Of a stretch of 64,000 nucleotides of DNA, positions 39,190-57,254 are shown piece by piece (the stretch's first letter is position 1; each line of letters starts with the position of its first letter). The stretch lies in NCBI GenBank assembly GCA_963816145.1, contig CAWFJP010000005.1, positions 288,001-352,000 on the forward strand, read 5' to 3'. This DNA comes from an uncultured delta proteobacterium. GTDB lineage: Bacteria > Desulfobacterota > Binatia > UBA9968. The notes beneath the pieces were generated by a model that had not been told where the DNA came from, searched no databases, and worked only from the letters and a program-made list of their open reading frames with translations. A program made the position numbers and the translations under genes.

Positions 39190-39580
39190 GGAAAATGCTG
39201 ACCTTTCCAGTGTTGAAATCAGGGATTTGCGGCGAAGAGAATAGTTCTTTCGCCAATTCTATCATCGTCGGCAAAATTACCAAGCATGAGACCTTGAACT
39301 GATTGTGTCATCGGCTCGGGTCGATTGTGCCAGACGAAGAATTTTGATGACGCATTGTGCCAGTCACACGAGTCCAACACATGCGGTGGATTTACCTGGA
39401 TTTCCGGTAATCTCTCGAAACTACAAACCTGGTAGACAATGCCGTGGATGGCATCATGATTGCTCAGAAAAGCATGAAAAATTCCGCGGCTACCTCATTG
39501 CTTGTTTGGTTTCCAGTGCGAAATGGCGGGGAACTCTTGCGGACCCAATACAACAAGGATCGGGTAGGTTTTTGTTAAAC

Positions 39581-42500
39581 ATGCGACTCCGACTCAATCT
39601 TAGCCTGCGTGTGCGGTTGTTCGAACTGGTAGCGATTGCGCTCCTGCCGGCGTTCGGCCTGATTGTTTACCACGCGGAGGAACAGCGTCACCAGGCCATC
39701 GCTGACGCCGCTAACGCCGCGCAGCGTTACGCGCGCTTCGTTGCATCGGATATTCATCGCGTGATCGATAGCTCCGGTCATTTGCTGATGGCGTTAGCGC
39801 AGCTTCCTGAGGTGCAAAACGCCGATCATGGCGCCTGCAATCGAGTTTTTGCCAAAATAATTAAAGAGTATCGAGTCTATCGCGACTTCGGTGTTGCTGA
39901 TCAAGATGGTCGGATCCTTTGCAGCGCGTCGCCGCCCGCGGGGCGGCCGCCGATCGGCGATCTCGTAGGCTCTAACGGTACTAATGCGCCACATCAACTT
40001 GTGGTTGGCAACTACCACATTTCTCAACCCTCAGGCCGGGCGGGCTTGAATCTTGGTTTCCCGATTCGTCGGGAAGGCAGTGTCGTGGGACTTGTGTATC
40101 TGGAGCTCGACTTGGCATGGCTAGGTCAGATTGCCAAGGTCGCTGACTTGCCCGAGGGATCAACGGTCACCCTCTTGGATCGGAACAGCACGATCCTTTC
40201 TCATTTCCCGAATAATCCGGGGTTTGCCGGGCGAAAAGTGACTACAGCCGCAATATCAAATGCGACAATTGACAATGGCAAACGAATTTCCCAAGGGATG
40301 TGGCTGGATGGGCAGGATCGCCTCTTCGGTTTATGGTCGGTGGGTGGAGCGTCCCAGGAGCCATGGGTCATGACTCAAGTGGGCTTGCTCAAAGAAGTCG
40401 CGCTTGCCGATGCCGAATGGTACTTCAAGCGTAACCTTGTGGCGTTATCATTGGTCGCAATTCTGGCACTCTTAATCGCTTGGTATGTCGGAGATATATT
40501 ATTCGTACGCCAGCTCAAGTCCTTGGCCAAAACGACGGCCAAGATCGGTGCGGGCGACTTTAACGTTCGCACGGGGCTGAGCCGTCGCAACAACGAATTA
40601 GACCGCTTTGCGCGGTCACTGGATTCGATGGCCGAGTTGCTGCAGCAGCGCGATCATGAGGCGAAAGTCGCCAAGGAGCGTTCACAACGACAGCTTGAGC
40701 GGATCAATGCCTTGCGTGAAATCGATATGGCGATTTCGTCGACCCTGGACCTACGCGCAGTTCTGAGCGTGCTCTTGGAAAAAATTGAATTGGTACTTAC
40801 TGCCGCCGCGGCGACAATTCGATTGGTGAACCAGCAGACGGGGGCATTGGAGCCATTCGTTTGCCGCAATGTCGATAACGCGGCTTGGCGTGCTGGATCG
40901 CGGACAGACTTGAGCGGCTTGGCGAAGACGGTTTTGGAGAATCGGATTCCGTTAACCGTGGCGAATGTTCAAACCGATCCACGTTCGACGGAAGCAGAGC
41001 TCGACAGAAAACTGGGGTTTGTGTCTTACTTGGGAGTGCCGTTGGTCGTGGCGCGTGAATCGCTCGGCGTGATCGAATTCTATACCCGGGAGGAACATGC
41101 CTTCAACGACGATGAAATCGAGTACCTCGCCGCCCTCGCCGGCCAGTCTGCGGTAGCGATTCATAATGCCCGATTGTTCGAAGAAACACGCCGACGCGAG
41201 CGCGAAGCTTCTGCATTGCACGGTGTTGCGGCTGCAGCTTCGCAGTCCTTGGATCTCGATGTGATTCTTAACGAAGTGATCAGCAAGATCTCAGCTAACT
41301 TCGCCTTTGACTCCGGCCATATATTACTTTTCAATTCCGAGACCTCTTTGTTGGAGTTGCGAGCGACGCATCCGGAAGCGGCGGCAAGCCCGCTCGATGA
41401 AGCTCTTTGGCGACAAGAGGAATCCTTCATACATCGCGTCGCAGCATCGGGGGAGGTTGTCGCGATTGAGGATGTCCTGGCCGATTCAGGTTGTCGAGGC
41501 CTCTGCGGGGTTAACGACGAGGAATCAAGCGGTAGGCGTTTTCTCGCTGTGTTTCCGGTCAAGACTAAACTAAAACATTGGGGCATCGCGGTGTTTAGCG
41601 GCCGCGAGCCAAGGCGGCTGAATGATAATGAAAGCCGTTTGCTCACGTCTATGACGCAACAGATCGGCGTCGCTGTGGAGAACGCGTTGCTGTACGAACA
41701 GACCGTGGCCAAAGCCAAAGAACTGGCGACGCTTTACTCCTTCACCACCCTTGCCAGCCAGTCGTTGGATATTCAGTTGCTGCTCCGTCGAACCACGGAA
41801 AAACTCCTCGAAATTTTCAAGTTCGACGCAGTCCGAGTATTCCTACGCGAAGGTGGCAGCGACGTAGTCGTCCTGGCTACACATTTCGGCTTGCCGTCAG
41901 GTTTCCCGCTTCGTGATCGCTATCATATCGGCGAGGGCCGCATTGGCGGGGTCATGAACAGCGGCAACCCGATGTTTGTTCCGGACCTGGCTAACGACCC
42001 TTCATATTGGACCACGGCACAGAATCAGGAGATGCGGAAACTAGGGTTTCGCAGTTCTTTCTTGATGCCAATTAACGCGGCCGGAAAATGTCTGGGTGTT
42101 ATGAATTTCCTTTGTCGCCAGCCTTATCGTTTCTCCGCCAGCGATGTCCAGTTGATCGAGGCTGCGGCGCACCATCTAGGGACCGCAGTGGGCAACGCCA
42201 ACCTGTTTTCCCAAATCCAGCGGAAGTCGCAGGAACTCGAGGTAGCCAACAAAGCCAAGGACGAGTTTCTCGGTGTGATCTCTCATGAATTGCGTACGCC
42301 GCTCAACATCATCAAGGGGTATGCCGATATTCTCAAACAAAGAATATTCGGCGACGTGAATAGCGAGCAGGCAACGGCGCTTGAAAAAATCATGACTCAA
42401 GCAACGGCGCTGACGGACATGATCAACGACGTATTGCAAGTGTCAGCGATCGAGGCGCAAAAAACCCGATTGAGTTGGGGGGATGTCGATCTGGTCTCTT

Positions 42501-43012
42501 TGCTGAGCGAACTGCGAGAAAGCTACGGTTTCGCTAACGACGCGTCGATCGAAGTCCGCTGGACCTTTGGCGATGATTTGCCGGTGATTCGTACCGACGC
42601 CGAGAAACTCAAAGCGATCGTGCAGAATCTCGTTAACAATGCGCTCAAATTCACTGAGACGGGAACCGTAAGCATAACGGCGAATGAATTTGTCGAGGGC
42701 GATGGCATTGAGTTGCGGGTGACGGATACCGGCATCGGTATTCCCGCGGATAAGATCGATACGATATTCGGGATGTTTCAGCAAGCCGATAATTCTTCTA
42801 CCCGAGGATATGGCGGCGTCGGACTGGGGTTATATATCGTAAAGAGCTTTACCGAACTCCTAGGCGGCCATGTGTCGGTATGCAGCGAAATTGGCAAAGG
42901 CACATGTTTTAGCGTTAATCTGCCACTCGATGCCGAAGCGAAGCTCGCGGCTCCTGGCGGCCTGGTTCCTACGCATGCCGCTCCCGCGGTTGAGCCGGCT
43001 GCAATAACTTAG
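39581..43012 (+). CDS. membrane sensor histidine kinase (Cache-HAMP-3xGAF-HisKA-HATPase)
   Basis: Two TMs around a periplasmic domain, HAMP, three GAF repeats ending AIHNARLFE / AVENALLYE / AVGNANLFS, SHELRTPL, NALKFT, DTGIGI, GVGLGL. Start uncertain. Confidence 0.88.
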   Translation: MRLRLNLSLRVRLFELVAIALLPAFGLIVYHAEEQRHQAIADAANAAQRYARFVASDIHRVIDSSGHLLMALAQLPEVQNADHGACNRVFAKIIKEYRVYRDFGVADQDGRILCSASPPAGRPPIGDLVGSNGTNAPHQLVVGNYHISQPSGRAGLNLGFPIRREGSVVGLVYLELDLAWLGQIAKVADLPEGSTVTLLDRNSTILSHFPNNPGFAGRKVTTAAISNATIDNGKRISQGMWLDGQDRLFGLWSVGGASQEPWVMTQVGLLKEVALADAEWYFKRNLVALSLVAILALLIAWYVGDILFVRQLKSLAKTTAKIGAGDFNVRTGLSRRNNELDRFARSLDSMAELLQQRDHEAKVAKERSQRQLERINALREIDMAISSTLDLRAVLSVLLEKIELVLTAAAATIRLVNQQTGALEPFVCRNVDNAAWRAGSRTDLSGLAKTVLENRIPLTVANVQTDPRSTEAELDRKLGFVSYLGVPLVVARESLGVIEFYTREEHAFNDDEIEYLAALAGQSAVAIHNARLFEETRRREREASALHGVAAAASQSLDLDVILNEVISKISANFAFDSGHILLFNSETSLLELRATHPEAAASPLDEALWRQEESFIHRVAASGEVVAIEDVLADSGCRGLCGVNDEESSGRRFLAVFPVKTKLKHWGIAVFSGREPRRLNDNESRLLTSMTQQIGVAVENALLYEQTVAKAKELATLYSFTTLASQSLDIQLLLRRTTEKLLEIFKFDAVRVFLREGGSDVVVLATHFGLPSGFPLRDRYHIGEGRIGGVMNSGNPMFVPDLANDPSYWTTAQNQEMRKLGFRSSFLMPINAAGKCLGVMNFLCRQPYRFSASDVQLIEAAAHHLGTAVGNANLFSQIQRKSQELEVANKAKDEFLGVISHELRTPLNIIKGYADILKQRIFGDVNSEQATALEKIMTQATALTDMINDVLQVSAIEAQKTRLSWGDVDLVSLLSELRESYGFANDASIEVRWTFGDDLPVIRTDAEKLKAIVQNLVNNALKFTETGTVSITANEFVEGDGIELRVTDTGIGIPADKIDTIFGMFQQADNSSTRGYGGVGLGLYIVKSFTELLGGHVSVCSEIGKGTCFSVNLPLDAEAKLAAPGGLVPTHAAPAVEPAAIT

Positions 43013-46194: not shown

Positions 46195-46578
46195 AATGAA
46201 AAATCCTTTCTGCTCCTGTCGCATCGGTATGCGCGAGGTTAGGCTGCGACTCGGTTTGCTGTCAAGTGGTGGTCAGCGCCGAAACCAAAACTCGGATGAT
46301 CTTTCGCAGAGGCGCGAAGGCGCAATGTTCGGTGGTTTTCATTTCGAACGGAGAGTGACATCTTTCATAGATCCCTCGCATTCGCTCGGGATGACCTCCC
46401 GCTGGCATGTCACTTAGCGCCTTTGCGCGTTGGCGAGCGATCATTCCAATCCGAGATTGACGCAAATTGGGCCAATCGCTTTTATGACCAGGGTTTTGAA
46501 CCGCCACGATACACGTTGATTGCGGCAGCCGTTTCGGGTTAGACAGGAAGAAATTACTTTTTCTTGGAGGGAAAAGTT

Positions 46579-47664
46579 ATGGCACGCAACGGAATCCCCG
46601 TCGTCGATGGCGACGGTCATGTGATGGAAGATTGGGACGGGCTTTTGCAATATATGCCGGAGCCGTACATCAAGAGCGGCCGCTTCAAGGGTCGGATTTT
46701 CCCGCCGCTGGATCATCTACATGGGGCGACGCTCTATACGCTGGTGCCCGGCGCGTTCCGTCCGGTGCGCGAAGATGGCTGGTTGGAGTTTATGGAAGAT
46801 GTCGGCATCGAGCGGGCGGTGCTGTACAGCACGGGTGGGCTGGCCTTTGGCAAGGTTATAACCCGTGAATTCGCCGTCGACGTGGCGCGGGCGTGGAACA
46901 ACTGGTTCGCCGACACTTACTTGAAAAAAAGCCCGCGCTTTCAGGGGCTGGCCTTGGTGCCGCTGCAAGAACCGGCGGAAGCGATTAAAGAAATGCGCCG
47001 CGCGGTCAATGAACTGAAATTCTGCGGCGTCATGCTGCCATCCACCGGCTTCAAGGGCCATTTGGGGGATAAGGAATACTGGCCGTTTTATGAAGAAGCG
47101 AGCAAACTCGGCTGCTGTATCGGTATTCATGGCGGCGCCCACGAGGGACTGGGAATGGATTGGCTTACGCCCTACGCACCGATCAATGGTTTGGGCCATG
47201 CGATTGGCCAGATGGTGGCGTTTGCCGGCTTGGTCTTTAACGGAATTTTTGAAAAGTATCCCAACGTCCGCGTCGGTTTCATGGAAGCCGGGGTGTCGTG
47301 GTTGCAAACATGCTTAGAGCGCTTCGACCGCGGCTGGGAAACCCATATCCAGTACGATCCGCGCGGCGAATATCTGCAGCTCAAGCCTGGCGAAAAAGTC
47401 AGCGACTATATCCGCCGCCATGTCGAAGCGGGGCGCATCTTCGTCGGCTGTGAAGGTACCGAGAAAGGGCTGCATCATTTAGTTGAGGCGGTTGGCAATA
47501 AGCCATTCATGTTCTCCAGCGACTTTCCCCATGAAGTGAATAACGAATACTGCAAGCACGAGATCGAAGAAATCATCGAGAACGAGCATCTCACCGATGA
47601 CGATAAGCATGCGGTGCTGCATCGCAACGCGGAACGGTTTTACGGTCTGAAGCCGCTGGGGTGA
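46579..47664 (+). CDS. amidohydrolase_2 family protein
   Basis: VDGDGH, ARAWNNW, GIHGG, GFMEAG, SSDFPH; RBS ggagg. Confidence 0.88.
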   Translation: MARNGIPVVDGDGHVMEDWDGLLQYMPEPYIKSGRFKGRIFPPLDHLHGATLYTLVPGAFRPVREDGWLEFMEDVGIERAVLYSTGGLAFGKVITREFAVDVARAWNNWFADTYLKKSPRFQGLALVPLQEPAEAIKEMRRAVNELKFCGVMLPSTGFKGHLGDKEYWPFYEEASKLGCCIGIHGGAHEGLGMDWLTPYAPINGLGHAIGQMVAFAGLVFNGIFEKYPNVRVGFMEAGVSWLQTCLERFDRGWETHIQYDPRGEYLQLKPGEKVSDYIRRHVEAGRIFVGCEGTEKGLHHLVEAVGNKPFMFSSDFPHEVNNEYCKHEIEEIIENEHLTDDDKHAVLHRNAERFYGLKPLG

Positions 47665-47838: not shown

Positions 47839-48948
47839 ATGGACATGCCGATGTCCGGCGATATTTTCCCTGCCAGGCAAGCGATTGAGATGATCGACCA
47901 GGTCGATCTCTCTCTTCCCATTGAGATTCCCGCCGTGCCGCTGGAGTCCGACCCGGATAATGTGCCGCCCGCGGATCATCGCGCGCTGTTAGCGGAAGTT
48001 GCCGCGCTCAAGAAAGCAAAGAACGCTTATATTCTGGCCCATAATTATGCGCCGCGCGATATTCAGGATGTCGCCGATGCGGTGGGCGATTCGCTCTACC
48101 TGGCGCAGCAGGGTGCCCAGTCCGACGCCGACGTTTTGGTTGAAGCGTCGGTGCTGTTCATGAACCAGATCCTGGCGATTATGAAAAAACCGCGACAGCG
48201 GGTGTTGGCGCCGGATCCGGGTGCGCTCTGTTCCTTGGCGGCGCATGCCGACGCAGGTAAAATTCGCCAGTGGCGGCGCGATCACCCGGACGGCATTGTC
48301 ATCAGTTACGTGAATACGTACTTGGATGTAAAAGCGGAAAGCGACTACTGCTGTGCCTCGGCCAACGCGGCCAAAGTCGTGCTGTATGTCTTGGAACATT
48401 CGCGCCCGAGCCAACCGCTGCTGTTTCTTCCCGATCTCTATCTTGGTTTTTACGCGGCAAAGCTGTTGGAGCAACAGAAGCAGTCCGTTGACCGGCTCTG
48501 GCTGATGATGGGCGCTTGTCATGTGCATGACCGGATCCGGCCGTATCATGTCGAGCAGCAACGCAAGCTCTATCCCGATGCGGCGGTGGTGGTTCATCCC
48601 GAGTGTGGCTGCACCAGCGCCTGTATGCGCCAGATGGCGCAGGGTAAAACGCCGGCGGATATGATGCAGTTCCGCTCGACGCAGGGTATGGTGCAGTTCG
48701 TCCGCGACACACCGCAGCAAGTCGTGATCATGGCCACCGAGGTGGGTAACATTTATCCGTTGTCCAAAGCTGCGCCCGGGAAGACGATCGTGCCGGCGAG
48801 CGCTGAAGCGGTGTGCGCATTCATGAAGCAGAACACATTGCGCAAATTACGTGACTCGCTGCGCGATGGCGTGCACGAAATTAAAGTCGATGCCGAGTTG
48901 GCGGCGCGGGCGCGGCTGCCGATCGAGCGGATGTTGAGTATTTTGTAA
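47839..48948 (+). CDS. nadA: quinolinate synthase ([4Fe-4S])
   Basis: LAHNY, GDSL, CSLA, YVNT, GACHVH, HPEC, STQG, CAFMK: three cluster cysteines and catalytic residues present. Confidence 0.88.
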   Translation: MDMPMSGDIFPARQAIEMIDQVDLSLPIEIPAVPLESDPDNVPPADHRALLAEVAALKKAKNAYILAHNYAPRDIQDVADAVGDSLYLAQQGAQSDADVLVEASVLFMNQILAIMKKPRQRVLAPDPGALCSLAAHADAGKIRQWRRDHPDGIVISYVNTYLDVKAESDYCCASANAAKVVLYVLEHSRPSQPLLFLPDLYLGFYAAKLLEQQKQSVDRLWLMMGACHVHDRIRPYHVEQQRKLYPDAAVVVHPECGCTSACMRQMAQGKTPADMMQFRSTQGMVQFVRDTPQQVVIMATEVGNIYPLSKAAPGKTIVPASAEAVCAFMKQNTLRKLRDSLRDGVHEIKVDAELAARARLPIERMLSIL

Positions 48949-48995
48949 TCGTTACGGCGGCCGAACCCGCCCACACGGCGAGAGAAAGGTAATCG

Positions 48996-50630
48996 ATGAT
49001 GGAAGATCTCGTTGAAATCGTCAATCCGTTGGGTGTCCCGCGCAAGCAGGTGAGTAAACTGGCGCCGCGACGATACGACAGCCTGGAGGGCCGGCGGATT
49101 GGATTGCTCGATAACAACAAGCCCAACGCCGACACGTTCTTGCAAATCATCGGCGAATTACTCCGCGCGCGTCATGCCGATATCCAACTCGTTGCCAAAC
49201 GCAAGATGACGCGCATGGAATCGGACGGTCTGGCGCAGTTAGCCGGGGATTGCGATGTCGTCATCAACGCCTTTGCCGATTGAGGTTCGTGCACGTCGTG
49301 GAGTGTCCACGACTCGGTAAAGCTCGAAGGCGCGGGGATTGCCACCGTGACCGTGGTGAGCAGCGAGTTTTGGGCCCTAGCTCTGACAGAGGCGCAGGCG
49401 CGTGGTGTGAAAGATCTGCCGCTGGTCAAAGTGCCGCATCCGGTGGGCACGATAGCGTTTGATGCGCTGCGCTCGGTCGCCGAGTCGGCAGTCGATGCGA
49501 TTGTCAGTAAATTGGTTCGCGGCAATGATTCGGCCTCGTGCGGCGAGGGCATCTCTGCAGAGGCCGGTGAAGGCAGTGCCGCCGCCACGTTGTCCGTTCC
49601 GAGCGATCCCGAAGATTTGTTCAGTTTCTTTTTCGATCGCGGATGGACCGACGGCTTGCCGGTCTTGCCACCGACTTTAGCAGCGGTGCGAAAGATGGTT
49701 GCCGCTGGCGGCAAGAAAGCCGATGTGATTTTGGGCGTCATCCCGCCGCTGAATGGCGTTGCCACCGTTGAAAAGATCGCCGCCAATGCGGTGATGGCAG
49801 GCTGTTTGCCGGACTATTATCCGCTCGTGCTCGCGGCGGTGCGCGCCATCACCCGGCCGGGCTATAACCTTGACGGCTTGCAGACGACCACGGGAAATAT
49901 CGCGCCGCTGGCGATCGTTAACGGGCCTTGCCGCAATCGGTTGGCGATCAACTATGGTGCCAATGTGCTCGGTCAGGGCTGGCGCGCTAACGCCACCATC
50001 GGCCGGGCGATTCGTTTCGTCATGACCAATATCGGCGGTGCTCGGCCCGGCAGCTTCGATAAGTCGACGATGGGCCAGCCGGCGAAATACACTTTTTGTT
50101 TCGCTGAAAACGAAGAAGAGAGTCCGTGGCAACCGTTTCATGTCGAGCGCGGCCTGGCGCGCGATTGCGATACGATACATATGTTCGGCGCCAGCGGCGT
50201 TTACAGCGCCGTCGATATGGCCAGCCAATCGGCCAATGGATTGCTCAAGACTTTCGCGTTGACGATGACCGGCGGCTTGGCGAGCGGCGTGACTTCAACA
50301 GAAGTTCTCTGGGTGATTTGTCCCGAGCACGCGGCTATCCTGGCGCGGGATGGTTTTTCCAAAGAGAAGTTGCGTGTCGAGCTATTCGCTTTTGCACGCG
50401 TGCCCTTCGACAAGATCGCCGATGAAAACTTAGATCTGCTCGCCAAACGGCGACCTGGTTGGTTCAAGTCTGGCGCGGCGCGCGAGATTGGCGTGGTCGA
50501 CCGGCCCGAAGACATCTGGCTCGTGGTCGCCGGTGGCGCGGGCGCCAAGTCGGCATATATTCCGGGGCGGACGGGAACGCGGATGCAAACGGTGGCCGTG
50601 GAGGGACCCGAGTATGCAGTACTGGAGTGA
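48996..50630 (+). CDS. UGSC-family selenoprotein (Sec96, UxxC) fused to an uncharacterised ~350-aa GWTDGLP domain; 544 aa
   Basis: ORFs 48996-49283 and 49347-50630 are in the same frame, separated only by TGA 49281-49283. Read-through gives ...NAFAD-U-GSCTSWSVHDSVKLEGAGIATVTVVS...; a SECIS-like hairpin follows. Confidence 0.9.
49281..49313 (+). promoter_or_regulatory. bacterial SECIS element (Sec codon plus hairpin)
   Basis: TGA, 11-nt spacer, perfect stem gtcgtgga (49295-49302) / tccacgac (49306-49313) with G-starting loop GTG. Confidence 0.82.
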
Positions 50631-50637
50631 TGGCAAT

Positions 50638-51630
50638 ATGAGTTGGAATCGGCAAATCGTAATTGTGATGATCTATTTCTGCGTGTGGTTGGTGCCGTCG
50701 CTGGCCGATGCCCAAATCAAGTCGATCATCATCGGCGAAGGGGTGCGCGGCGCGATGTATTTGCCGGCGTACATCGCCGAGGAAAAAGGCTTCTTCAAGC
50801 GGCGTGAATTGGATACCCGCATGGTTACCTTCAGCCGCAGCAACGACATCAATGCCTTGGTGTCGGGAGATATACAGTTCGATCTGACGTCGCCGGACAA
50901 AGTTGTCCATAGCGCCTTGGGCGGATTCCCGGTGAAGATGGTGATGGGCACGGCACGCGGGCTGAACCTCGCCTTGACGGTGCATCCATCGATCCGCACG
51001 GCTACCGATTTGCGTGGCAAGTCGGTGGCGATCACCGGCTTTTCCGGTTTGCCCTATACCGGGCTGCTGCTCTGTTTACGCGAACTCGGCATGACCAAGG
51101 ATCAGGTGGTGCCGCTCAATATCGGCGGCAAGAGCGCGCGCTTCGAGGCCTTACTCGGCAATCGTGTGCCGGCGGCGATCCTCGATCCGCCCTATACAAC
51201 GCTGGCGGCCAAGGAAGGTTACCGCTTGCTAGTGGACTTGGCGCCGTTGGATGTTCCCTATCTGCGCAACATTGTCGCGGTGTCGGAGAAAACGCTGCGC
51301 GACGACAGCCGCACGGTCGCGCGCTTTGTCGCTGGGTTGGCGGAGGGCATGCAGTTTTATCGCAACAAGGTCAACAAAGAAGACAGCATGAAGATTCTGG
51401 CGAAGTATCTACGGCTGCCGTTGGAGAAAAATCGTCCGATGATCGAAGAAGGCTATGAAACCTATCGTGATATGATGCTGAAAAAACCTTACGCGGACCC
51501 CACTGCGATGAAGATTCTGCTGGAGATCATAGCCGAATCGAATCCCAAGGCGAAGTCGGTCAATCTCGCGGCGCTGATCGACTCGTCGTTCGTCGAAGGC
51601 TTGGATCGTGCGGGTATGTTCGACCGTTAG
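50638..51630 (+). CDS. NMT1/SsuA-like ABC substrate-binding protein
   Basis: Signal peptide, YLPAYIAEEKGFF, DLRGKSVAI, DPPY; starts 7 nt after the selenoprotein stop. Confidence 0.85.
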   Translation: MSWNRQIVIVMIYFCVWLVPSLADAQIKSIIIGEGVRGAMYLPAYIAEEKGFFKRRELDTRMVTFSRSNDINALVSGDIQFDLTSPDKVVHSALGGFPVKMVMGTARGLNLALTVHPSIRTATDLRGKSVAITGFSGLPYTGLLLCLRELGMTKDQVVPLNIGGKSARFEALLGNRVPAAILDPPYTTLAAKEGYRLLVDLAPLDVPYLRNIVAVSEKTLRDDSRTVARFVAGLAEGMQFYRNKVNKEDSMKILAKYLRLPLEKNRPMIEEGYETYRDMMLKKPYADPTAMKILLEIIAESNPKAKSVNLAALIDSSFVEGLDRAGMFDR

Positions 51631-53662: not shown

Positions 53663-54745
53663 ATGGCCGGAAATAAGCTAAAAGGGCTGGTCTTAAGCGG
53701 GGGCCGGGGAACTCGGCTGCGCCCGCTCACGCATACCGCGGCAAAACAGCTTGTGCCGGTGGCCAACCGGCCGATACTGTTTCACGTTCTCGACAATTTG
53801 CAAAAAGCCGCAGTCGACGACGTCGGGATCGTGATCTCGCCCGAGACCGGGCCGGCGATCCGCGAAGCGGTGGGCGACGGCAGCGCCTGGGGAATGAAAA
53901 TTTCTTTTATCGAGCAAACCGAACCGCTCGGCCTGGCTCACGCGGTCAAGGTGGCGCGGCCCTATTTGGGCGACGATCCCTTCGTCATGTATCTCGGCGA
54001 TAATCTGATCGGTTCGGGGATCGAAAGTTTTCGCGAGCAATTCGAAAAATCCGGCGCGGTTGCGTCGATCTTGCTCAAGGAAGTCGACAACCCGTCAAGT
54101 TTTGGTATCGCCGAAGTCGACGATCAACAGCGCGTGCTCGGCCTGGTAGAAAAGCCGCGGGAGCCGAAATCAAAATTAGCCTTGGTGGGTATTTATTTTT
54201 TTACTGCGAAGATTCATAGCGCCATCGACCAGATCGTGCCTTCCTGGCGCGGCGAGTTGGAGATCACCGACGCCATTCAACTGCTGCTCAGTCAAGGCGG
54301 CAAAGTGCTGAGCCATCGCATCGATGGTTGGTGGCTCGACACCGGCAAGAAGGACGATCTATTGACCGCCAACACCGTCGTCCTCGATGAGTGGGTGCAG
54401 CGGAAGATTGACGGTGAGATCGATGGCGCCAGCCACGTCACCGGACGTGTGCAGCTCGGCAAAGGCAGCCGTGTCGTCAATAGCACTGTGCGCGGTCCCG
54501 CAGTGATCGGCGATGAGGTGCTCGTCGAGAATTCTTTTGTCGGTCCGTTCACCTCCATCGGCAATGGCTGCCGCATCGTTTCTTCAATGCTGGAACACTG
54601 CTTATTGCTGGAAGGCGCGCGGGTGGAATGTGTGGACCGTCTCGAAGATAGCTTGCTCGGCAAAAACTCCGCTGTGGTGCGCGAGCAAAAGAGACACCAG
54701 GCCTACCGCTTGATGATCGGCGACGATTCCGAAGTGTTGCTCTGA
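53663..54745 (+). CDS. rfbA: glucose-1-phosphate thymidylyltransferase (long form)
   Basis: LSGGRGTRLRPLT, KQLVPVAN, QTEPLGLAHA, YLGDN, RGELEITDA, WLDTG, plus C-terminal hexapeptide region. Confidence 0.93.
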   Translation: MAGNKLKGLVLSGGRGTRLRPLTHTAAKQLVPVANRPILFHVLDNLQKAAVDDVGIVISPETGPAIREAVGDGSAWGMKISFIEQTEPLGLAHAVKVARPYLGDDPFVMYLGDNLIGSGIESFREQFEKSGAVASILLKEVDNPSSFGIAEVDDQQRVLGLVEKPREPKSKLALVGIYFFTAKIHSAIDQIVPSWRGELEITDAIQLLLSQGGKVLSHRIDGWWLDTGKKDDLLTANTVVLDEWVQRKIDGEIDGASHVTGRVQLGKGSRVVNSTVRGPAVIGDEVLVENSFVGPFTSIGNGCRIVSSMLEHCLLLEGARVECVDRLEDSLLGKNSAVVREQKRHQAYRLMIGDDSEVLL

Positions 54746-55308
54746 TGCCGTTTACTTTCTCGCCCACTAGAATTGCCGATGTGCTGGTCGTCGAGCCACG
54801 AATTTTTCCCGACGAGCGCGGCTTTTTCATGGAAACCTACAAGCGTTCGGAATTCGCCGCTCACGGAATCGGTGAGCCGTTTGTGCAATGTAATCAGTCA
54901 CGCTCGGCGCGCGGCATCTTGCGCGGTTTGCACTTTCAAAAGCCGCCGAAGGCTCAAGGTAAGCTAGTGCGCGTCATGAGCGGCGCGATCTTCGATGTGG
55001 CGGTCGATTTACGCAAGGGGGCGCCGACCTACGGCCAATGGGTCGGCGTGGAATTGACCGCGGCAAATAATAAGATGCTTTATGCGCCGGCGGGCTTCGC
55101 CCATGGCTTTTGCGTCGTCAGCGCCGAAGCGGATATCGCGTACATGACCAGCGACGAATATGCGCCGTCGCTGGAGTCCGGCATCGCCTGGGACGATGCG
55201 GATCTGAACATCACTTGGCCGGTCACAGTGCCGCAACTATCGGGGCGCGATCGTAAGTGGTCGCGCTTGCGCGACACCGATACGGGATTTGTCTATCGGG
55301 GAAGGTGA
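54745..55308 (+). CDS. rfbC: dTDP-4-dehydrorhamnose 3,5-epimerase
   Basis: DERGFFME, LRGLHFQ, QGKLVRV, DVAVDLR, GFAHGF. Confidence 0.95.
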   Translation: MPFTFSPTRIADVLVVEPRIFPDERGFFMETYKRSEFAAHGIGEPFVQCNQSRSARGILRGLHFQKPPKAQGKLVRVMSGAIFDVAVDLRKGAPTYGQWVGVELTAANNKMLYAPAGFAHGFCVVSAEADIAYMTSDEYAPSLESGIAWDDADLNITWPVTVPQLSGRDRKWSRLRDTDTGFVYRGR

Positions 55309-55332
55309 GCCCGGTTCGTTTCATTCGAAGAT

Positions 55333-56379
55333 ATGAAAACTATTTTTGTTACCGGCGGTTGCGGTTTCATCGGCAGTAATTTCGTGCGTCTGCTATCGAC
55401 GACCACGGATTACCGCATCGTCAATTTCGACAAGCTGACCTACGCCGGCAATTTGGAGAACGTCGCCGATATCAGCCCAGCGCGCATGCGCTTTGTCCAG
55501 GGCGATATTTGCGACCGCGAGTTCGTCGAGCGCATACTCGCCGAAGAGAAGCCCTGGGCGTTTGTCAACTTTGCCGCGGAGTCGCATGTCGATCGCAGCA
55601 TTCTCGACTCGGCGCCGTTTCTCCAGACCAATATCGGCGGTGTTCAATCGCTGCTCGAAGCCGTGCGGCGGGTGAGCGTCGAACGGTTCCTGCAGATCTC
55701 GACCGACGAAGTCTATGGCGACAAGGAAGGCAAGCCGTCGTCCACCGAAGATTCTCTTTTGGCGCCGAGCAGTCCTTACTCGGCGAGCAAAGCCGCCGCC
55801 GATCTGCTTTGCTTCTCCTATCGGCGCACCTATGGTTTGCCGATTCTGGTGACGCGCAGCTCCAACAACTACGGGCCGTATCAATTTCCCGAGAAACTCA
55901 TCCCGCTGCTCTTGCGCAACGGTCTCGGCGATCTTGATTTTCCTGTCTACGGTGACGGCCAGCAGATTCGCGATTGGATCCATGTCGAAGACAACTGCCG
56001 TGGGTTGTTGGCAGTTTTGGAAAACGGCGAGATCGGATCGATTTATAATATCGGCACGAGCGAAGAGCGCAGTAATCTGGCGGTCGTCGACGCGATCTGT
56101 GCCGCCATCGCGGCGCACAAAGGTGTCGATCTGGACCGACTCACAGCGCGCATTCGTTACGTCGCCGACCGTCCGGGCCATGACCGGCGCTACGCCCTCG
56201 ATACGACCAAGGTGCGTAATGAGCTCGGTTGGGCGCCGCGAGTGGATTTCCCGAGCGGTTTGCAACGGACGGTCGATTGGTATTTGAGTCATGCGGACTG
56301 GGTGGCGCGGGTGACGTCCGGCGAATATCGCCAATACTACGAATCAGTTTACGCCCAGAGCTGGGGCAAGACATCCTAA
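55333..56379 (+). CDS. rfbB: dTDP-glucose 4,6-dehydratase
   Basis: TGGCGFIGSNF, DKLTYAGN, FAAESHVDRSI, STDEVYG, YSASK, DRPGHDRRY. Confidence 0.95.
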   Translation: MKTIFVTGGCGFIGSNFVRLLSTTTDYRIVNFDKLTYAGNLENVADISPARMRFVQGDICDREFVERILAEEKPWAFVNFAAESHVDRSILDSAPFLQTNIGGVQSLLEAVRRVSVERFLQISTDEVYGDKEGKPSSTEDSLLAPSSPYSASKAAADLLCFSYRRTYGLPILVTRSSNNYGPYQFPEKLIPLLLRNGLGDLDFPVYGDGQQIRDWIHVEDNCRGLLAVLENGEIGSIYNIGTSEERSNLAVVDAICAAIAAHKGVDLDRLTARIRYVADRPGHDRRYALDTTKVRNELGWAPRVDFPSGLQRTVDWYLSHADWVARVTSGEYRQYYESVYAQSWGKTS

Positions 56380-57254
56380 TGGCTCGGGTCGGAGTCGTCG
56401 GCAGCACGGGACAGTTGGGCCATGACCTGGTCGAGGTGCTGCGTGGAGCCAATAATTTTGAAGTCGTTGCACTCGATCATAGTCAGATCGAGTGTGCCGA
56501 TTTGGACTCGGTGCGCGGGGTGTTGCTGCCGCTCAAGGCGCGGGCGGTGATCAATTGCGCTGCCTTTGTCCGGGTCGACGACTGTGAATCGCAGGCGCGC
56601 GAAGCGTTTGCCGTCAATGCGCTGGGCGCTCTTCATGTCGCCCGCGCCGCTGCCGAGAGCGGCGCCAAATGCGTTTACATCAGCACCGATTATGTTTTCG
56701 ACGGCGGTAAGGATTCTCCCTACATCGAGTCCGACGTTACTGCGCCGATCAACGTATATGGCGCGTCGAAGCTCGCGGGCGAGCATTTGGTTCGGCAGGC
56801 GGCGCCGGACTGGTTAATCGTCCGGGTGGCGAGTCTATTCGGCAAGACCGGCGCCCGCGGCAAAGGCGGTAATTTTATCGAAACGATTCTCGCTAAAGCG
56901 CGCAAAGGAGAGCCGCTGAAGGTTGTCGACGATATCCTCATTTCGCCGACCTACGCCTGGGATGCGTCGGAGGCGATCGCCCAACTGATCGCCGCCGATG
57001 CCACTGGTATCATTCACGCCGCCAATAGCGGCGCCTGTACATGGTATGAGTTCGCTAAAACGGCTTTGGAACTTTGTCAATTGACCGCCCCGATCGAGGC
57101 GGTGCCATCGTCCCAATTCCCCACGCTGGCGCGCCGGGCGAAGAACTCGGCGCTAGCGAGCGCGCGCTTGCTGCAAGAATTCAACATCACGATGCCCCTC
57201 TGGCGCGACGCTCTGCGCGCCTACCTGTTCGAAAAAGACCACCTGCGGGCCTAA
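56379..57254 (+). CDS. rfbD: dTDP-4-dehydrorhamnose reductase
   Basis: GSTGQLG, NCAAFVRVD, STDYVFDG, YGASK, VVDD..SPT. Confidence 0.93.
   Translation: MARVGVVGSTGQLGHDLVEVLRGANNFEVVALDHSQIECADLDSVRGVLLPLKARAVINCAAFVRVDDCESQAREAFAVNALGALHVARAAAESGAKCVYISTDYVFDGGKDSPYIESDVTAPINVYGASKLAGEHLVRQAAPDWLIVRVASLFGKTGARGKGGNFIETILAKARKGEPLKVVDDILISPTYAWDASEAIAQLIAADATGIIHAANSGACTWYEFAKTALELCQLTAPIEAVPSSQFPTLARRAKNSALASARLLQEFNITMPLWRDALRAYLFEKDHLRA

What the first reader, a model, noticed from the sequence alone, without database searches (positions are those of the whole stretch)
48996..50630. Hidden 544-aa selenoprotein: UGSC (UxxC) domain fused to an uncharacterised ~350-aa domain
Seen in sequence: the 95-aa ORF at 48996 and the 427-aa ORF at 49347 share a frame, and the only stop between them is TGA at 49281-49283. 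Read-through gives DCDVVINAFAD-U-GSCTSWSVHDSVKLEGAGIATVTVVSSEF. A low-complexity linker (SASCGEGISAEAGEGSAAA) then leads into a second domain beginning RGWTDGLPVLPPT...EKIAANAVMAGC. Established knowledge: U-G-S-C defines the computationally described, functionally uncharacterised UGSC selenoprotein family, and the context resembles the Sec site of glycine/proline reductase selenoproteins GrdB/PrdB (U-x-x-C...E..GIP.V). Inference: the two domains, which I recall usually occurring as adjacent separate genes, are here one polypeptide. That would be Rosetta-stone evidence for a single Sec-dependent redox or reductive-cleavage enzyme. Standard gene callers would split and miss it.
Basis: partly seen in the sequence, partly recalled or inferred. 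Interest (0 to 1): 0.92.

Follow-up and report, generated by a model that had tools for sequence, protein, structure and literature searches.

The report
UGSC selenoprotein fused to unnamed partner
This is a real selenocysteine-containing gene that gene callers cut in two, joining a small selenium redox module to a large, unnamed, probably catalytic domain; the architecture is common and was noted before, but its function is still unknown.

Summary
Window 48996-50630 is one 544-codon frame interrupted only by TGA at 49281-49283. The TGA falls inside a UGSC-family domain (NF041046 137 bits, PF24696 157 bits) at the U-G-S-C motif. A conserved hairpin starts 11 nt downstream, with frozen synonymous sites and one compensatory pair. 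The genome has selA, selB, selD and tRNA-Sec.

Residues 201-544 belong to a large family with no Pfam or NCBIfam name (5028 cluster representatives) and no clear structural relative. The genome holds four UGSC+partner pairs, two fused and two split. Among 150 family representatives, 59 are UGSC fusions in either domain order, and 42 of these are cut exactly at the Sec codon. Others are fused to AhpC/Redoxin or thioredoxin-reductase-like modules.

UGSC models as a flavodoxin/Rossmann-like domain. Its Sec region aligns with the Sec module of GrdB/PrdB (hhalign E 2e-5).

Best reading: a Sec-dependent two-electron reductase in which U96/C99 feed a site in the partner domain. The substrate is unknown.

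A "UGSC/Unknown_1 fusion" was published in 2008, so this is a new member of a known, uncharacterised kind.

The parts
48985..48989 (+). Shine-Dalgarno-like AAAGG, 6 nt before the ATG
   Evidence: Read from the sequence.
48996..50630 (+). Whole coding sequence of the 544-aa selenoprotein (stop TGA at 50628-50630 included)
   Evidence: One frame with a single internal TGA. Orthologues at 62-85% identity cover query positions 1 to 536-539 with 1 TGA each.
49014..49517 (+). UGSC domain (residues 7-174), modelled as a flavodoxin/Rossmann-like alpha/beta fold
   Evidence: PF24696 157.1 bits (cut-off 25) and NF041046 137.1 bits (cut-off 125). AF2 pLDDT is mostly above 90. VIA Z 10-11.4 to generic alpha/beta sandwiches over residues 28-182.
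49281..49283 (+). Sec codon UGA (U96). In the model it sits between strand 88-94 and helix 97-112
   Evidence: TGA in 22 of 22 aligned UGSC genes. Cys stands at this position in 14 of 17 uninterrupted fused homologues.
49290..49292 (+). Cys99, the likely resolving Cys of U-G-S-C
   Evidence: Invariant in alignment A5. Aligns with the Cys position of the GRDB Sec module.
49295..49313 (+). SECIS-like hairpin: GUCGUGGA (49295-49302), loop GUG (49303-49305), UCCACGAC (49306-49313). It starts 11 nt after the UGA
   Evidence: Folding. Same hairpin in 30 of 31 UGSC genes listed, with one compensatory G-C to A-U. Synonymous sites are frozen in the stem codons.
49518..49595 (+). Low-complexity linker (residues about 175-200)
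   Evidence: pLDDT 55-74 for residue blocks 181-200. Not conserved among orthologues.
49596..50627 (+). Partner domain (residues 201-544) of an unnamed family. Near-invariant residues: D219-G-L-P, N264, G269, C270, T299, N332, R337, C368, E371, W378, G513-G514
   Evidence: No Pfam or NCBIfam hit at E<=10. 0 of 94 relatives match any NCBIfam model apart from UGSC remnants. 5028 representatives at E<=1e-3. Conservation. AF2 pLDDT 95.2.
49803..49805 (+). Cys270 (in NAVMAGC), near-invariant
   Evidence: Replaced by Ala in the C8-type paralogue.
50097..50099 (+). Cys368 (in F-C-x-A-E-N-E), near-invariant
   Evidence: Absent from the C8-type paralogue.
50638..51630 (+). NMT1/THI5-type solute-binding protein, starting 8 nt after the stop. 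A recurrent neighbour of UGSC-partner pairs
   Evidence: PF09084 66.6 bits. Conserved downstream of the fused orthologues and the split paralogues. The family has about 338 loci in this genome.
46564..47664 (+). Amidohydro_2 enzyme, a recurrent upstream neighbour
   Evidence: PF04909 113 bits. 90-96% identical copies sit directly upstream of the fusion in L015-L020. About 151 loci of the family in the genome.
47839..48948 (+). NadA (quinolinate synthase), 48 nt upstream. Probably housekeeping and only incidentally adjacent
   Evidence: PF02445 291 bits. Only one NadA locus in the genome. Adjacent in L021, L023, L024 and L027 but not in L015-L020.

Best explanation
Window 48996-50630 encodes one 544-residue selenoprotein. 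UGA-96 is recoded to selenocysteine by SelB and tRNA-Sec, directed by a hairpin that starts 11 nt downstream. The N-terminal UGSC domain carries U96-G-S-C99 at a strand-to-helix junction. I read it as a two-electron selenol/thiol redox centre that is evolutionarily related to the Sec module at the C-terminus of GrdB/PrdB. It is tethered by a flexible linker to a roughly 345-residue domain of an unnamed family, which I take to be the substrate-binding, catalytic part of a thiol/selenol-dependent reductase. U96/C99 deliver electrons into the partner's conserved pocket, either directly to a bound substrate or through the partner's own Cys270/Cys368 pair. The resulting selenenylsulfide is re-reduced by a thioredoxin-type system. 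Shown: the gene, the Sec recoding signals, the family membership, and the recurrent fusion and adjacency of the two modules. Inferred: electron flow, catalytic role, re-reduction. Unknown: the substrate. I put the identity as a Sec-containing fusion at about 0.93 and the reductase mechanism at about 0.5.
For: Gene and recoding: single in-frame TGA; the UGSC domain spans it; hairpin 11 nt downstream, shared by 30 of 31 UGSC genes with one compensatory pair. Mean codon entropy is 0.14 bits at five stem codons against 1.14 bits at 18 invariant residues elsewhere. selA, selB, selD (itself with a TGA) and tRNA-Sec are all on contig C30. The same gene ends with TGA as a stop, so the recoding is site-specific. 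Functional coupling: there are four UGSC+partner pairs in this genome, two fused and two split. Among 150 representatives of the partner family, 55 are UGSC-partner and 4 are partner-UGSC, so fusion arose at least twice. The full-length AF2 model has pLDDT 93.5 and pTM 0.93. Redox role: Cys replaces Sec in 14 of 17 uninterrupted fusions, 11 of them as CxxC. U96 lies between strand 88-94 and helix 97-112. The partner is also fused to AhpC-TSA/Redoxin (P0226) and to a Pyr_redox_2 flavoprotein with a CAVC motif (P0264, 141 bits). The C8-type paralogue keeps U-S-T-C but lacks both partner Cys, whereas forms whose UGSC domain has lost its redox residues keep C270 and C368. GrdB link: hhalign of UGSC against read-through GRDB gives probability 77%, E 2e-5, 64 columns, Sec on Sec; the control gives 0.46%.
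Against: No activity, cofactor or substrate is shown. I could not read the model's coordinates, so the distance from U96 to the partner's conserved residues is unknown, and the pTM is only indirect evidence for domain packing. The partner has no significant structural or sequence relative that would indicate chemistry. Three of 17 uninterrupted fusions have no redox residue in the UGSC domain, so that domain may also play a structural role. The GrdB homology is moderate only and rests on 6 GRDB paralogues from a single genome. The neighbour families are hugely expanded in this genome, and only Amidohydro_2 recurs in the more distant G038.
Confidence: 0.55

Rival explanations
1. PrdB/GrdB-like reductive cleavage. 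The Sec itself attacks a substrate that the partner domain binds and activates, so the partner is a functional analogue of PrdA/GrdE. This breaks a C-N or C-X bond and leaves a Se-S bond with C99. Cys270 and Cys368 are not part of the electron path. (This is a sharper variant of the best explanation rather than its opposite.)
For: The UGSC Sec region aligns with the GRDB Sec module. The C8-type fused paralogue keeps U-x-x-C but lacks both partner Cys, and it appears in 28 listed rows among relatives, 2 of them from the unpublished G005 and G035. The genome already uses six GRDB-type selenoproteins and a Sec-GrdA. The mechanism of PrdB is recalled, not taken from a call.
Against: The partner is unrelated to the GRDB body (probability 0.13%). 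No pyruvoyl-type processing site was tested. Fusions of the partner to TrxR-like and AhpC-like modules without UGSC suggest the partner accepts electrons on its own Cys pair. Forms lacking U/C in UGSC still keep C270/C368.
Confidence: 0.25
2. The partner holds a metal or Fe-S centre and is a hydro-lyase-like enzyme distantly related to class I fumarate hydratase. On this reading UGSC only protects or repairs that centre.
For: Foldseek's best hits for the partner are class I fumarate hydratases (7xky_A E 2.2e-4, probability 0.95). VIA gives Z 5.0-5.9 with 185-204 residues aligned at rmsd 4.9-6.0. There are two near-invariant Cys.
Against: The Z values are in the range the tool calls common for unrelated folds. 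The strongest matches (Z about 7, 80-88 residues) are to a generic chorismate-mutase/RidA-like lobe. hhalign against this genome's own class I fumarate hydratase gives probability 0.45%. No Pfam hit at E<=10. Only two conserved Cys are present, and both are missing in the C8-type paralogue.
Confidence: 0.07
3. The TGA is a true stop or an assembly error, and 48996-49283 and 49347-50630 are two separate genes or a pseudogene.
For: Standard gene calls in public databases do start after the TGA: the 120 best hits are 332-439 aa and cover 60-80% of the query.
Against: A stop here would cut one domain in half. TGA stands at this column in 22 of 22 genes and in orthologues from nine other assemblies. 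The hairpin shows RNA-level constraint. The Sec machinery is complete. Cys stands at the same position in uninterrupted homologues. A soil-metagenome contig (X1 record 2, 49097-49503) bridges the site with no difference listed at 49281-49283, although 19 differences are not shown in that output.
Confidence: 0.02

Closest known systems
UGSC-containing selenoprotein family (NCBIfam NF041046, Pfam PF24696), described computationally by Zhang and Gladyshev (PMC1976440 and PMC2398784, passages read)
   Same: Scores above both curated cut-offs, has the U-G-S-C motif at the family's Sec position, and has a SECIS-like hairpin. Like the family as a whole, its function is unknown (PMC13188914, passages read).
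   Different: Here the domain is the N-terminal third of a 544-aa protein. The papers call the family 'likely Trx-like fold', whereas the model's matches are flavodoxin/Rossmann-like alpha/beta sandwiches.
'UGSC/Unknown_1 fusion' from the Global Ocean Sampling selenoproteome (PMC2398784, text and the legend of Fig. S1A read)
   Same: [quoted passage not shown]
   Different: I could not see Fig. S1A because supplements are closed, so whether Unknown_1 is this partner family is likely but unverified.
Glycine/sarcosine/betaine and D-proline reductase selenoprotein B (GrdB/PrdB, Pfam PF07355 GRDB)
   Same: The strand - U-G-(S/T)-C - helix - 'E..GIP.V' - 'HP.G' module aligns with Sec on Sec (hhalign probability 77%, E 2e-5). 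Six GRDB genes of this genome have their TGA at the equivalent place.
   Different: No match to the 347-position GRDB body (probability 0.46%). The partner domain is unrelated to it. No pyruvoyl subunit or GrdA-type carrier is linked to this locus.
Modular thiol-redox fusions such as thioredoxin reductase joined to its acceptor (general principle, recalled, not from a call)
   Same: The partner family is found joined to UGSC (either order), to AhpC/Redoxin and to a TrxR-like flavoprotein. This is the pattern expected for an acceptor fed by interchangeable dithiol donors.
   Different: The acceptor here has no known fold or chemistry.
Class I (Fe-S) fumarate hydratase, N-terminal domain (PDB 7xky, 6mso, 5l2r)
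   Same: The only solved structures that align over most of the partner domain.
   Different: The scores are at background level, there is no sequence-profile similarity, and the partner has two conserved Cys, not three.

Membership tests
UGSC family (NF041046 / PF24696) | Profile score above the curated cut-off | tested here: met
   NF041046 137.1 bits against a cut-off of 125. PF24696 157.1 bits against 25.
UGSC family (NF041046 / PF24696) | U/C-G-S-C motif at the conserved position | tested here: met
   U96-G-S-C99. The column is invariant in A5, and Cys stands there in 14 of 17 uninterrupted homologues.
Bacterial selenoprotein (Sec recoding) | Stem-loop shortly downstream of the UGA with G/U in the apical loop (feature recalled from E. 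coli fdhF) | tested here: met
   An 8-bp stem starts 11 nt after the UGA, with loop GUG. It is conserved in 30 of 31 UGSC genes, and synonymous sites are frozen. No bulged U was seen. Rfam gave no hit.
Bacterial selenoprotein (Sec recoding) | selA, selB, selD and tRNA-Sec in the genome | tested here: met
   all four are on contig C30.
Bacterial selenoprotein (Sec recoding) | Selenium actually incorporated | not testable with these tools
   Needs 75Se labelling or mass spectrometry.
GrdB/PrdB (PF07355 GRDB) | Match to the GRDB body (347 positions) | tested here: not met
   No PF07355 hit at E<=10. UGSC against the GRDB body gives probability 0.46%, and the partner against GRDB gives 0.13%.
GrdB/PrdB (PF07355 GRDB) | Homologous Sec module (U-x-x-C after a beta strand, followed by a tail) | tested here: inconclusive
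   hhalign probability 77%, E 2e-5, 64 columns. Support is moderate, and the GRDB profile was built from only 6 paralogues.
GrdB/PrdB (PF07355 GRDB) | Works with a pyruvoyl proprotein (GrdE/PrdA) and, for Grd, with GrdA | not tested
   A GrdA gene exists elsewhere in the genome (C2). I did not search for GrdE/PrdA, and none is among the neighbours annotated.
Thioredoxin fold (as suggested for UGSC in PMC2398784) | Thioredoxin-like beta-alpha-beta fold carrying the redox motif | tested here: inconclusive
   The listed matches are flavodoxin, AzoR, receiver, periplasmic-binding and Rossmann-type domains, and I saw no thioredoxin entry among them. A family that is not listed is not thereby excluded.
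Class I fumarate hydratase / Fe-S hydro-lyase (PF05681) | Sequence-profile similarity | tested here: not met
   No Pfam hit at E<=10. hhalign probability 0.45% against this genome's own enzyme.
Class I fumarate hydratase / Fe-S hydro-lyase (PF05681) | Shared fold | tested here: inconclusive
   Foldseek E 2.2e-4, TM 0.29-0.34. VIA Z 4.7-5.9.
Class I fumarate hydratase / Fe-S hydro-lyase (PF05681) | Three conserved Cys ligands for a 4Fe-4S cluster (recalled) | tested here: not met
   Only C270 and C368 are near-invariant in the partner, and both are absent from the C8-type paralogue.

The most novel reading that the evidence does not exclude
UGSC and its partner together form a widespread, so far uncharacterised class of Sec-dependent reductases. 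A portable Sec module of GrdB/PrdB ancestry is plugged into a catalytic domain with a new fold. That domain can alternatively be fed by Trx-fold or TrxR-like modules. In soil and wetland bacteria the enzyme would act on small organic substrates handled by the neighbouring NMT1-type binding proteins and Amidohydro_2 enzymes. This would extend GrdB/PrdB-style selenium chemistry well beyond amino-acid-fermenting anaerobes.
Probability: 0.3. Interest if true: 0.75.

Novelty: new member of a known kind. Interest (0 to 1): 0.5.

Why it matters
UGSC is one of the most abundant selenoprotein families in aquatic metagenomes: 255 Sec sequences in GOS (PMC2398784). A 2026 review still lists its function as unknown (PMC13188914). 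This locus and its relatives tie UGSC firmly to one partner family of more than 5000 sequence clusters that has no name in Pfam or NCBIfam. They also suggest that the UGSC Sec module shares ancestry with GrdB/PrdB, and they show that the partner accepts interchangeable redox donors. That turns "unknown selenoprotein" into a concrete two-module enzyme that can be expressed (Cys forms exist), assayed and solved. A practical point follows too: 42 of 59 fused representatives in public protein sets are truncated at the Sec codon, so the family is systematically mis-annotated.

Tried and rejected
- **Rfam:** scanning 48500-51000 at E<=10 gave three unrelated sub-threshold hits and no SECIS family.
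- **Complex prediction:** I did not resend and dropped the test. Its stated code-11 rule also bars a Sec read-through chain. Binding in trans is therefore untested.
- **Model coordinates:** these are not available to scripts, so no Sec-to-Cys distances could be measured.
- **Full-length versus GRDB:** A1 against GRDB was uninformative because the UGSC columns fell out of the profile. I repeated the comparison with a UGSC-only alignment.
- **UGSC versus partner profile:** the 97.6% hit is an artefact of reverse-fusion rows inside A2.
- **Fumarate hydratase / Fe-S idea:** not supported.
- **NadA as a functional partner:** rejected. It is the genome's only copy and its adjacency varies.
- **PDB sequence searches:** partner, GRDB and UGSC profiles found nothing significant.
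- **ESM Atlas:** only unnamed clusters, plus one automatically named 'Thioredoxin family protein'.
- **Read laying:** X2's contigs break at the TGA/hairpin and do not bridge it. X4 and X17 gave mainly 33-49-nt pieces on 49275-49329 from other UGSC genes. One RNA-library contig (50316-50466, 1 difference) is no proof of transcription.
- **G038 context:** Pfam annotation gave an acyl-CoA-dehydrogenase-like neighbour but no clear pathway.
Full report
**1. The observation.**
The sequence at 48996-50630 is one reading frame. ORFs 48996-49283 (95 aa) and 49347-50630 (427 aa) share it. With TGA=U, the only non-standard steps are U96 (49281-49283) and the terminal TGA. An AAAGG lies 6 nt before the ATG.

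**2. It is a selenoprotein gene.**
- The read-through product matches NCBIfam NF041046 'UGSC family (seleno)protein' at 137.1 bits (cut-off 125, residues 31-173). It matches Pfam PF24696 at 157.1 bits (residues 7-174). So one domain spans the TGA.
- An 8-bp hairpin, GUCGUGGA-GUG-UCCACGAC, begins 11 nt after the UGA.
- A motif scan of all loci I held gave 32 hits, one of them spurious. Of the 31 UGSC genes, 30 carry this hairpin: 28 have the identical stem, one has a single A.C mismatch, and the copy on contig C9 has a compensatory G-C to A-U pair made of two synonymous changes. The C8-type copy has a different GC-rich hairpin (two of the rows come from the unpublished G005).
- In a 22-gene codon alignment the column is TGA in 22 of 22. 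Five stem codons (T100, S101, S103, H105, D106) have a mean codon entropy of 0.14 bits. Eighteen equally invariant residues outside the hairpin have 1.14 bits, and the spacer codon G97 varies freely at 1.65 bits. That is selection on the RNA.
- The genome (99.5% complete, 31 contigs) has selA, selB, selD (itself with one TGA) and tRNA-Sec, all on contig C30.
- The same gene ends in TGA, so the recoding is site-specific.
- Rfam returned nothing relevant.
- The features of bacterial SECIS elements that I compare against are recalled, not taken from a call.

**3. It is not an assembly error.**
Full-length orthologues (62-85% identity, query positions 1 to 536-539, each with exactly one TGA) occur in G021, G010, G002, G004, G007, G029, G025 and G017. 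G001 has one cut by a contig end. In G003, G018 and G027 the orthologue appears in two or three pieces, which I did not examine. Sixteen soil or wetland DNA runs hold at least half of the sampled words. One contig, X1 record 2 (49097-49503), bridges the codon with no difference listed there, although 19 differences are not shown in that output. X2's contigs stop at the TGA/hairpin and do not bridge it. Many short contigs, including some from an RNA library, pile up on 49275-49329, which reflects how conserved this stretch is across the family.

**4. The second domain.**
- Residues 201-544 hit nothing in Pfam or NCBIfam even at E<=10. Among 94 relatives, none matches any NCBIfam model other than UGSC remnants, which occur in 19.
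- An exhaustive HMMER search found 5028 cluster representatives at E<=1e-3, 3510 at <=1e-10 and 1283 at <=1e-30.
- Near-invariant residues are D219-G-L-P, N264, G269, C270, T299, N332, R337, C368, E371, W378 and G513-G514.
- AlphaFold2 models are confident: pLDDT 95.2 and pTM 0.93 for the domain alone, and pLDDT 93.5 and pTM 0.93 for the full protein, with only the linker low.
- No solved structure is a clear relative. The best VIA scores are Z about 7 over 79-88 residues, to a chorismate-mutase/RidA/encapsulin-type lobe that corresponds to residues about 400-525 of the full protein.
- Only class I fumarate hydratases align over most of the domain: Foldseek 7xky_A E 2.2e-4, and VIA Z 4.7-5.9 with 176-204 residues at rmsd 4.9-6.0. 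Those values are in the range the tool calls common for unrelated folds.
- hhalign against this genome's own class I fumarate hydratase gives probability 0.45%. A PDB profile search found nothing.

**5. The two modules belong together.**
- This genome has four UGSC+partner pairs. C5 (the window) is fused with U-G-S-C. C8 is fused with U-S-T-C. C3 has two genes about 200 nt apart. C9 has two genes with a small DUF559-like ORF between them; I recognised that ORF by eye.
- Among the 150 best representatives of the partner family, classified with HMMs built from my own alignments, 86 show the partner alone, 55 are UGSC-partner, 4 are partner-UGSC, and 5 have repeated partner stretches. Four of those five are true tandems of about 710-740 aa, and P0215 is one domain matched in two pieces.
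- Of the 55 UGSC-partner proteins, 38 begin at UGSC profile positions 104-144. All 4 reverse fusions end at position 98. Sec is position 99. So 42 of 59 fusions are gene calls cut at the Sec codon.
- The 120 closest database proteins are likewise 332-439 aa and cover 60-80% of the query. Where they are named, they are called 'hypothetical protein', from MAGs labelled Binatia, Deltaproteobacteria or Limnocylindria.
- Of the 17 uninterrupted fusions, 11 have CxxC at the site, 3 have Cys without a resolving Cys, and 3 have no redox residue.
- Among the 30 loci L014-L043, 27 show UGSC next to or fused with the partner. Two of the other three end at a contig edge. These loci were chosen by similarity to the whole fusion, so that count is biased.
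- In an even sample of the phylum, UGSC was found in 10 of 81 genomes including this one. There were 31 copies: 29 with one TGA and 24 in read-through frames of 545 aa or more. I did not verify the partner in the copies outside this genome. One genome (G091) has 14 copies.

**6. Clues to mechanism.**
- In the model, U96 lies between strand 88-94 and helix 97-112. That is a usual place for a redox-active CxxC-type motif (general knowledge).
- The UGSC domain's structural matches are flavodoxin, AzoR, receiver and Rossmann-type sandwiches: VIA Z 10-11.4 over residues 28-182, and Foldseek E about 4e-4. This does not agree with the 'likely Trx-like fold' of the 2008 paper.
- The genome has six GRDB-family genes, and each has a TGA directly after '...ILTST', giving U-G-(S/T)-(C/S/G)-(S/T)-R plus a tail of about 90 aa.
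- A UGSC-only profile aligns with the read-through GRDB profile at probability 77%, E 2e-5, over 64 columns, with Sec on Sec and the 'E..GIP.V' and 'HP.G' motifs in register. The control against the GRDB body alone gives 0.46%, and the partner against GRDB gives 0.13%.
- The partner family is also fused to an AhpC-TSA/Redoxin domain (P0226, 28.5 bits; P0211 has a CxxC but no Pfam hit). It is fused as well to a thioredoxin-reductase-type Pyr_redox_2 domain with a CAVC motif (P0264, 141 bits).
- The C8-type paralogue keeps U-x-x-C but has Ala and Thr in place of C270 and C368. Conversely, fusions whose UGSC has lost its redox residues keep both partner Cys.
- Together this points to a substrate site in the partner that is served by interchangeable two-electron donors. 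UGSC is the Sec-based donor, and C270/C368 are a likely second redox pair. Electron flow, catalysis and re-reduction by thioredoxin are inferences. The mechanisms of PrdB and GrdB that I compare with are recalled.

**7. Genomic context.**
- The order is Amidohydro_2 (46564-47664), NadA (47839-48948), the fusion, then an NMT1-type binding protein (50638-51630). A second Amidohydro_2 and two more binding proteins lie upstream on the other strand.
- Amidohydro_2 upstream and NMT1 downstream recur around the fused orthologues and around the roughly 45%-identical split paralogues (L036 comes from the unpublished G005).
- These families are enormous in this genome: about 151 Amidohydro_2 loci and about 338 NMT1 loci. 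The nearest NMT1 lies 11, 206, 327 and 2783 nt from the four pairs. The nearest Amidohydro_2 lies 1335, 125, 1238 and 47456 nt away. That is more than chance would give, but it is only moderate evidence.
- NadA is the genome's only copy and is not consistently adjacent, so it is probably incidental.
- In the more distant complete genome G038, the Sec-UGSC and partner genes are followed by an acyl-CoA-dehydrogenase-like gene, with Amidohydro_2 and TctA a few kb away.

**8. Comparison with what is known, and novelty.**
UGSC was named as a selenoprotein of unknown function in 2007 (PMC1976440, passages read). It was ranked among the most abundant GOS selenoprotein families in 2008, and the same paper reports a 'UGSC/Unknown_1 fusion' whose extra domain also occurs alone and has conserved Cys (PMC2398784, passages and the legend of Fig. 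S1A read). The figure is in a supplement that I could not open, so the identity of Unknown_1 with this partner is likely but unverified. Reviews from 2022 and 2026 still list UGSC as uncharacterised (PMC9312934; PMC13188914; passages only). Searches for 'UGSC' with 'selenoprotein' and for 'PF24696', 'NF041046', 'UGSC family' and 'UGSC-containing' found 9 and 8 papers respectively. In the passages I read, none assigns a function or links UGSC to GrdB.

The gene is therefore a new member of a known, uncharacterised kind.

**9. Verdict.**
Interest is 0.5. A specialist would not be surprised by a hidden UGSC selenoprotein. The partner link does, however, make an old open question, what UGSC does, directly testable.

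Noticed in passing
Genome contigs C27:56083, C5:355109 (about 3 kb beyond the window's end), C31:463379, C8:46673, C29:95029, C4:430353: Six GRDB-family (GrdB/PrdB-like) genes. Each has an in-frame TGA right after '...ILTST', giving U-G-(S/T)-x-(S/T)-R plus a tail of about 90 aa. They are probably six further selenoproteins that code-11 gene calling would truncate.
   Followed up: partly
Genome contig C2:212428-212859 and C30:565877-566803: A GrdA-family gene and selD each contain one in-frame TGA, so the genome is rich in selenoproteins.
   Followed up: no
Whole genome G000: Very large paralogue expansions by tblastn: about 338 NMT1/THI5-type binding-protein loci, about 151 Amidohydro_2 loci and about 121 SBP_bac-type loci in 7.8 Mb.
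   Followed up: partly
Genome contig C9, between about 84520 and 85170: A small ORF that looks like a DUF559-type endonuclease domain (recognised by eye) sits between the UGSC gene and its partner gene. It may be a mobile insertion that separates the pair.
   Followed up: no
G091 (same phylum): Fourteen UGSC matches in one 4.4-Mb genome, all in frames of 558-607 aa. Twelve have a TGA and two have none. This is a striking paralogue expansion of the long form.
   Followed up: no
window 39305-43012 (+): A 1235-aa ORF that looks like a multi-GAF sensor histidine kinase. Read by eye from the translation and not tested.
   Followed up: no
window 53663-57254 (+): Four consecutive ORFs that look like the dTDP-rhamnose pathway (RmlA-, RmlC-, RmlB- and RmlD-like). 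Read by eye from the translations and not tested.
   Followed up: no
P0132, P0156, P0212, P0249 (database proteins of about 710-740 aa): Tandem duplications of the partner domain within one polypeptide.
   Followed up: partly
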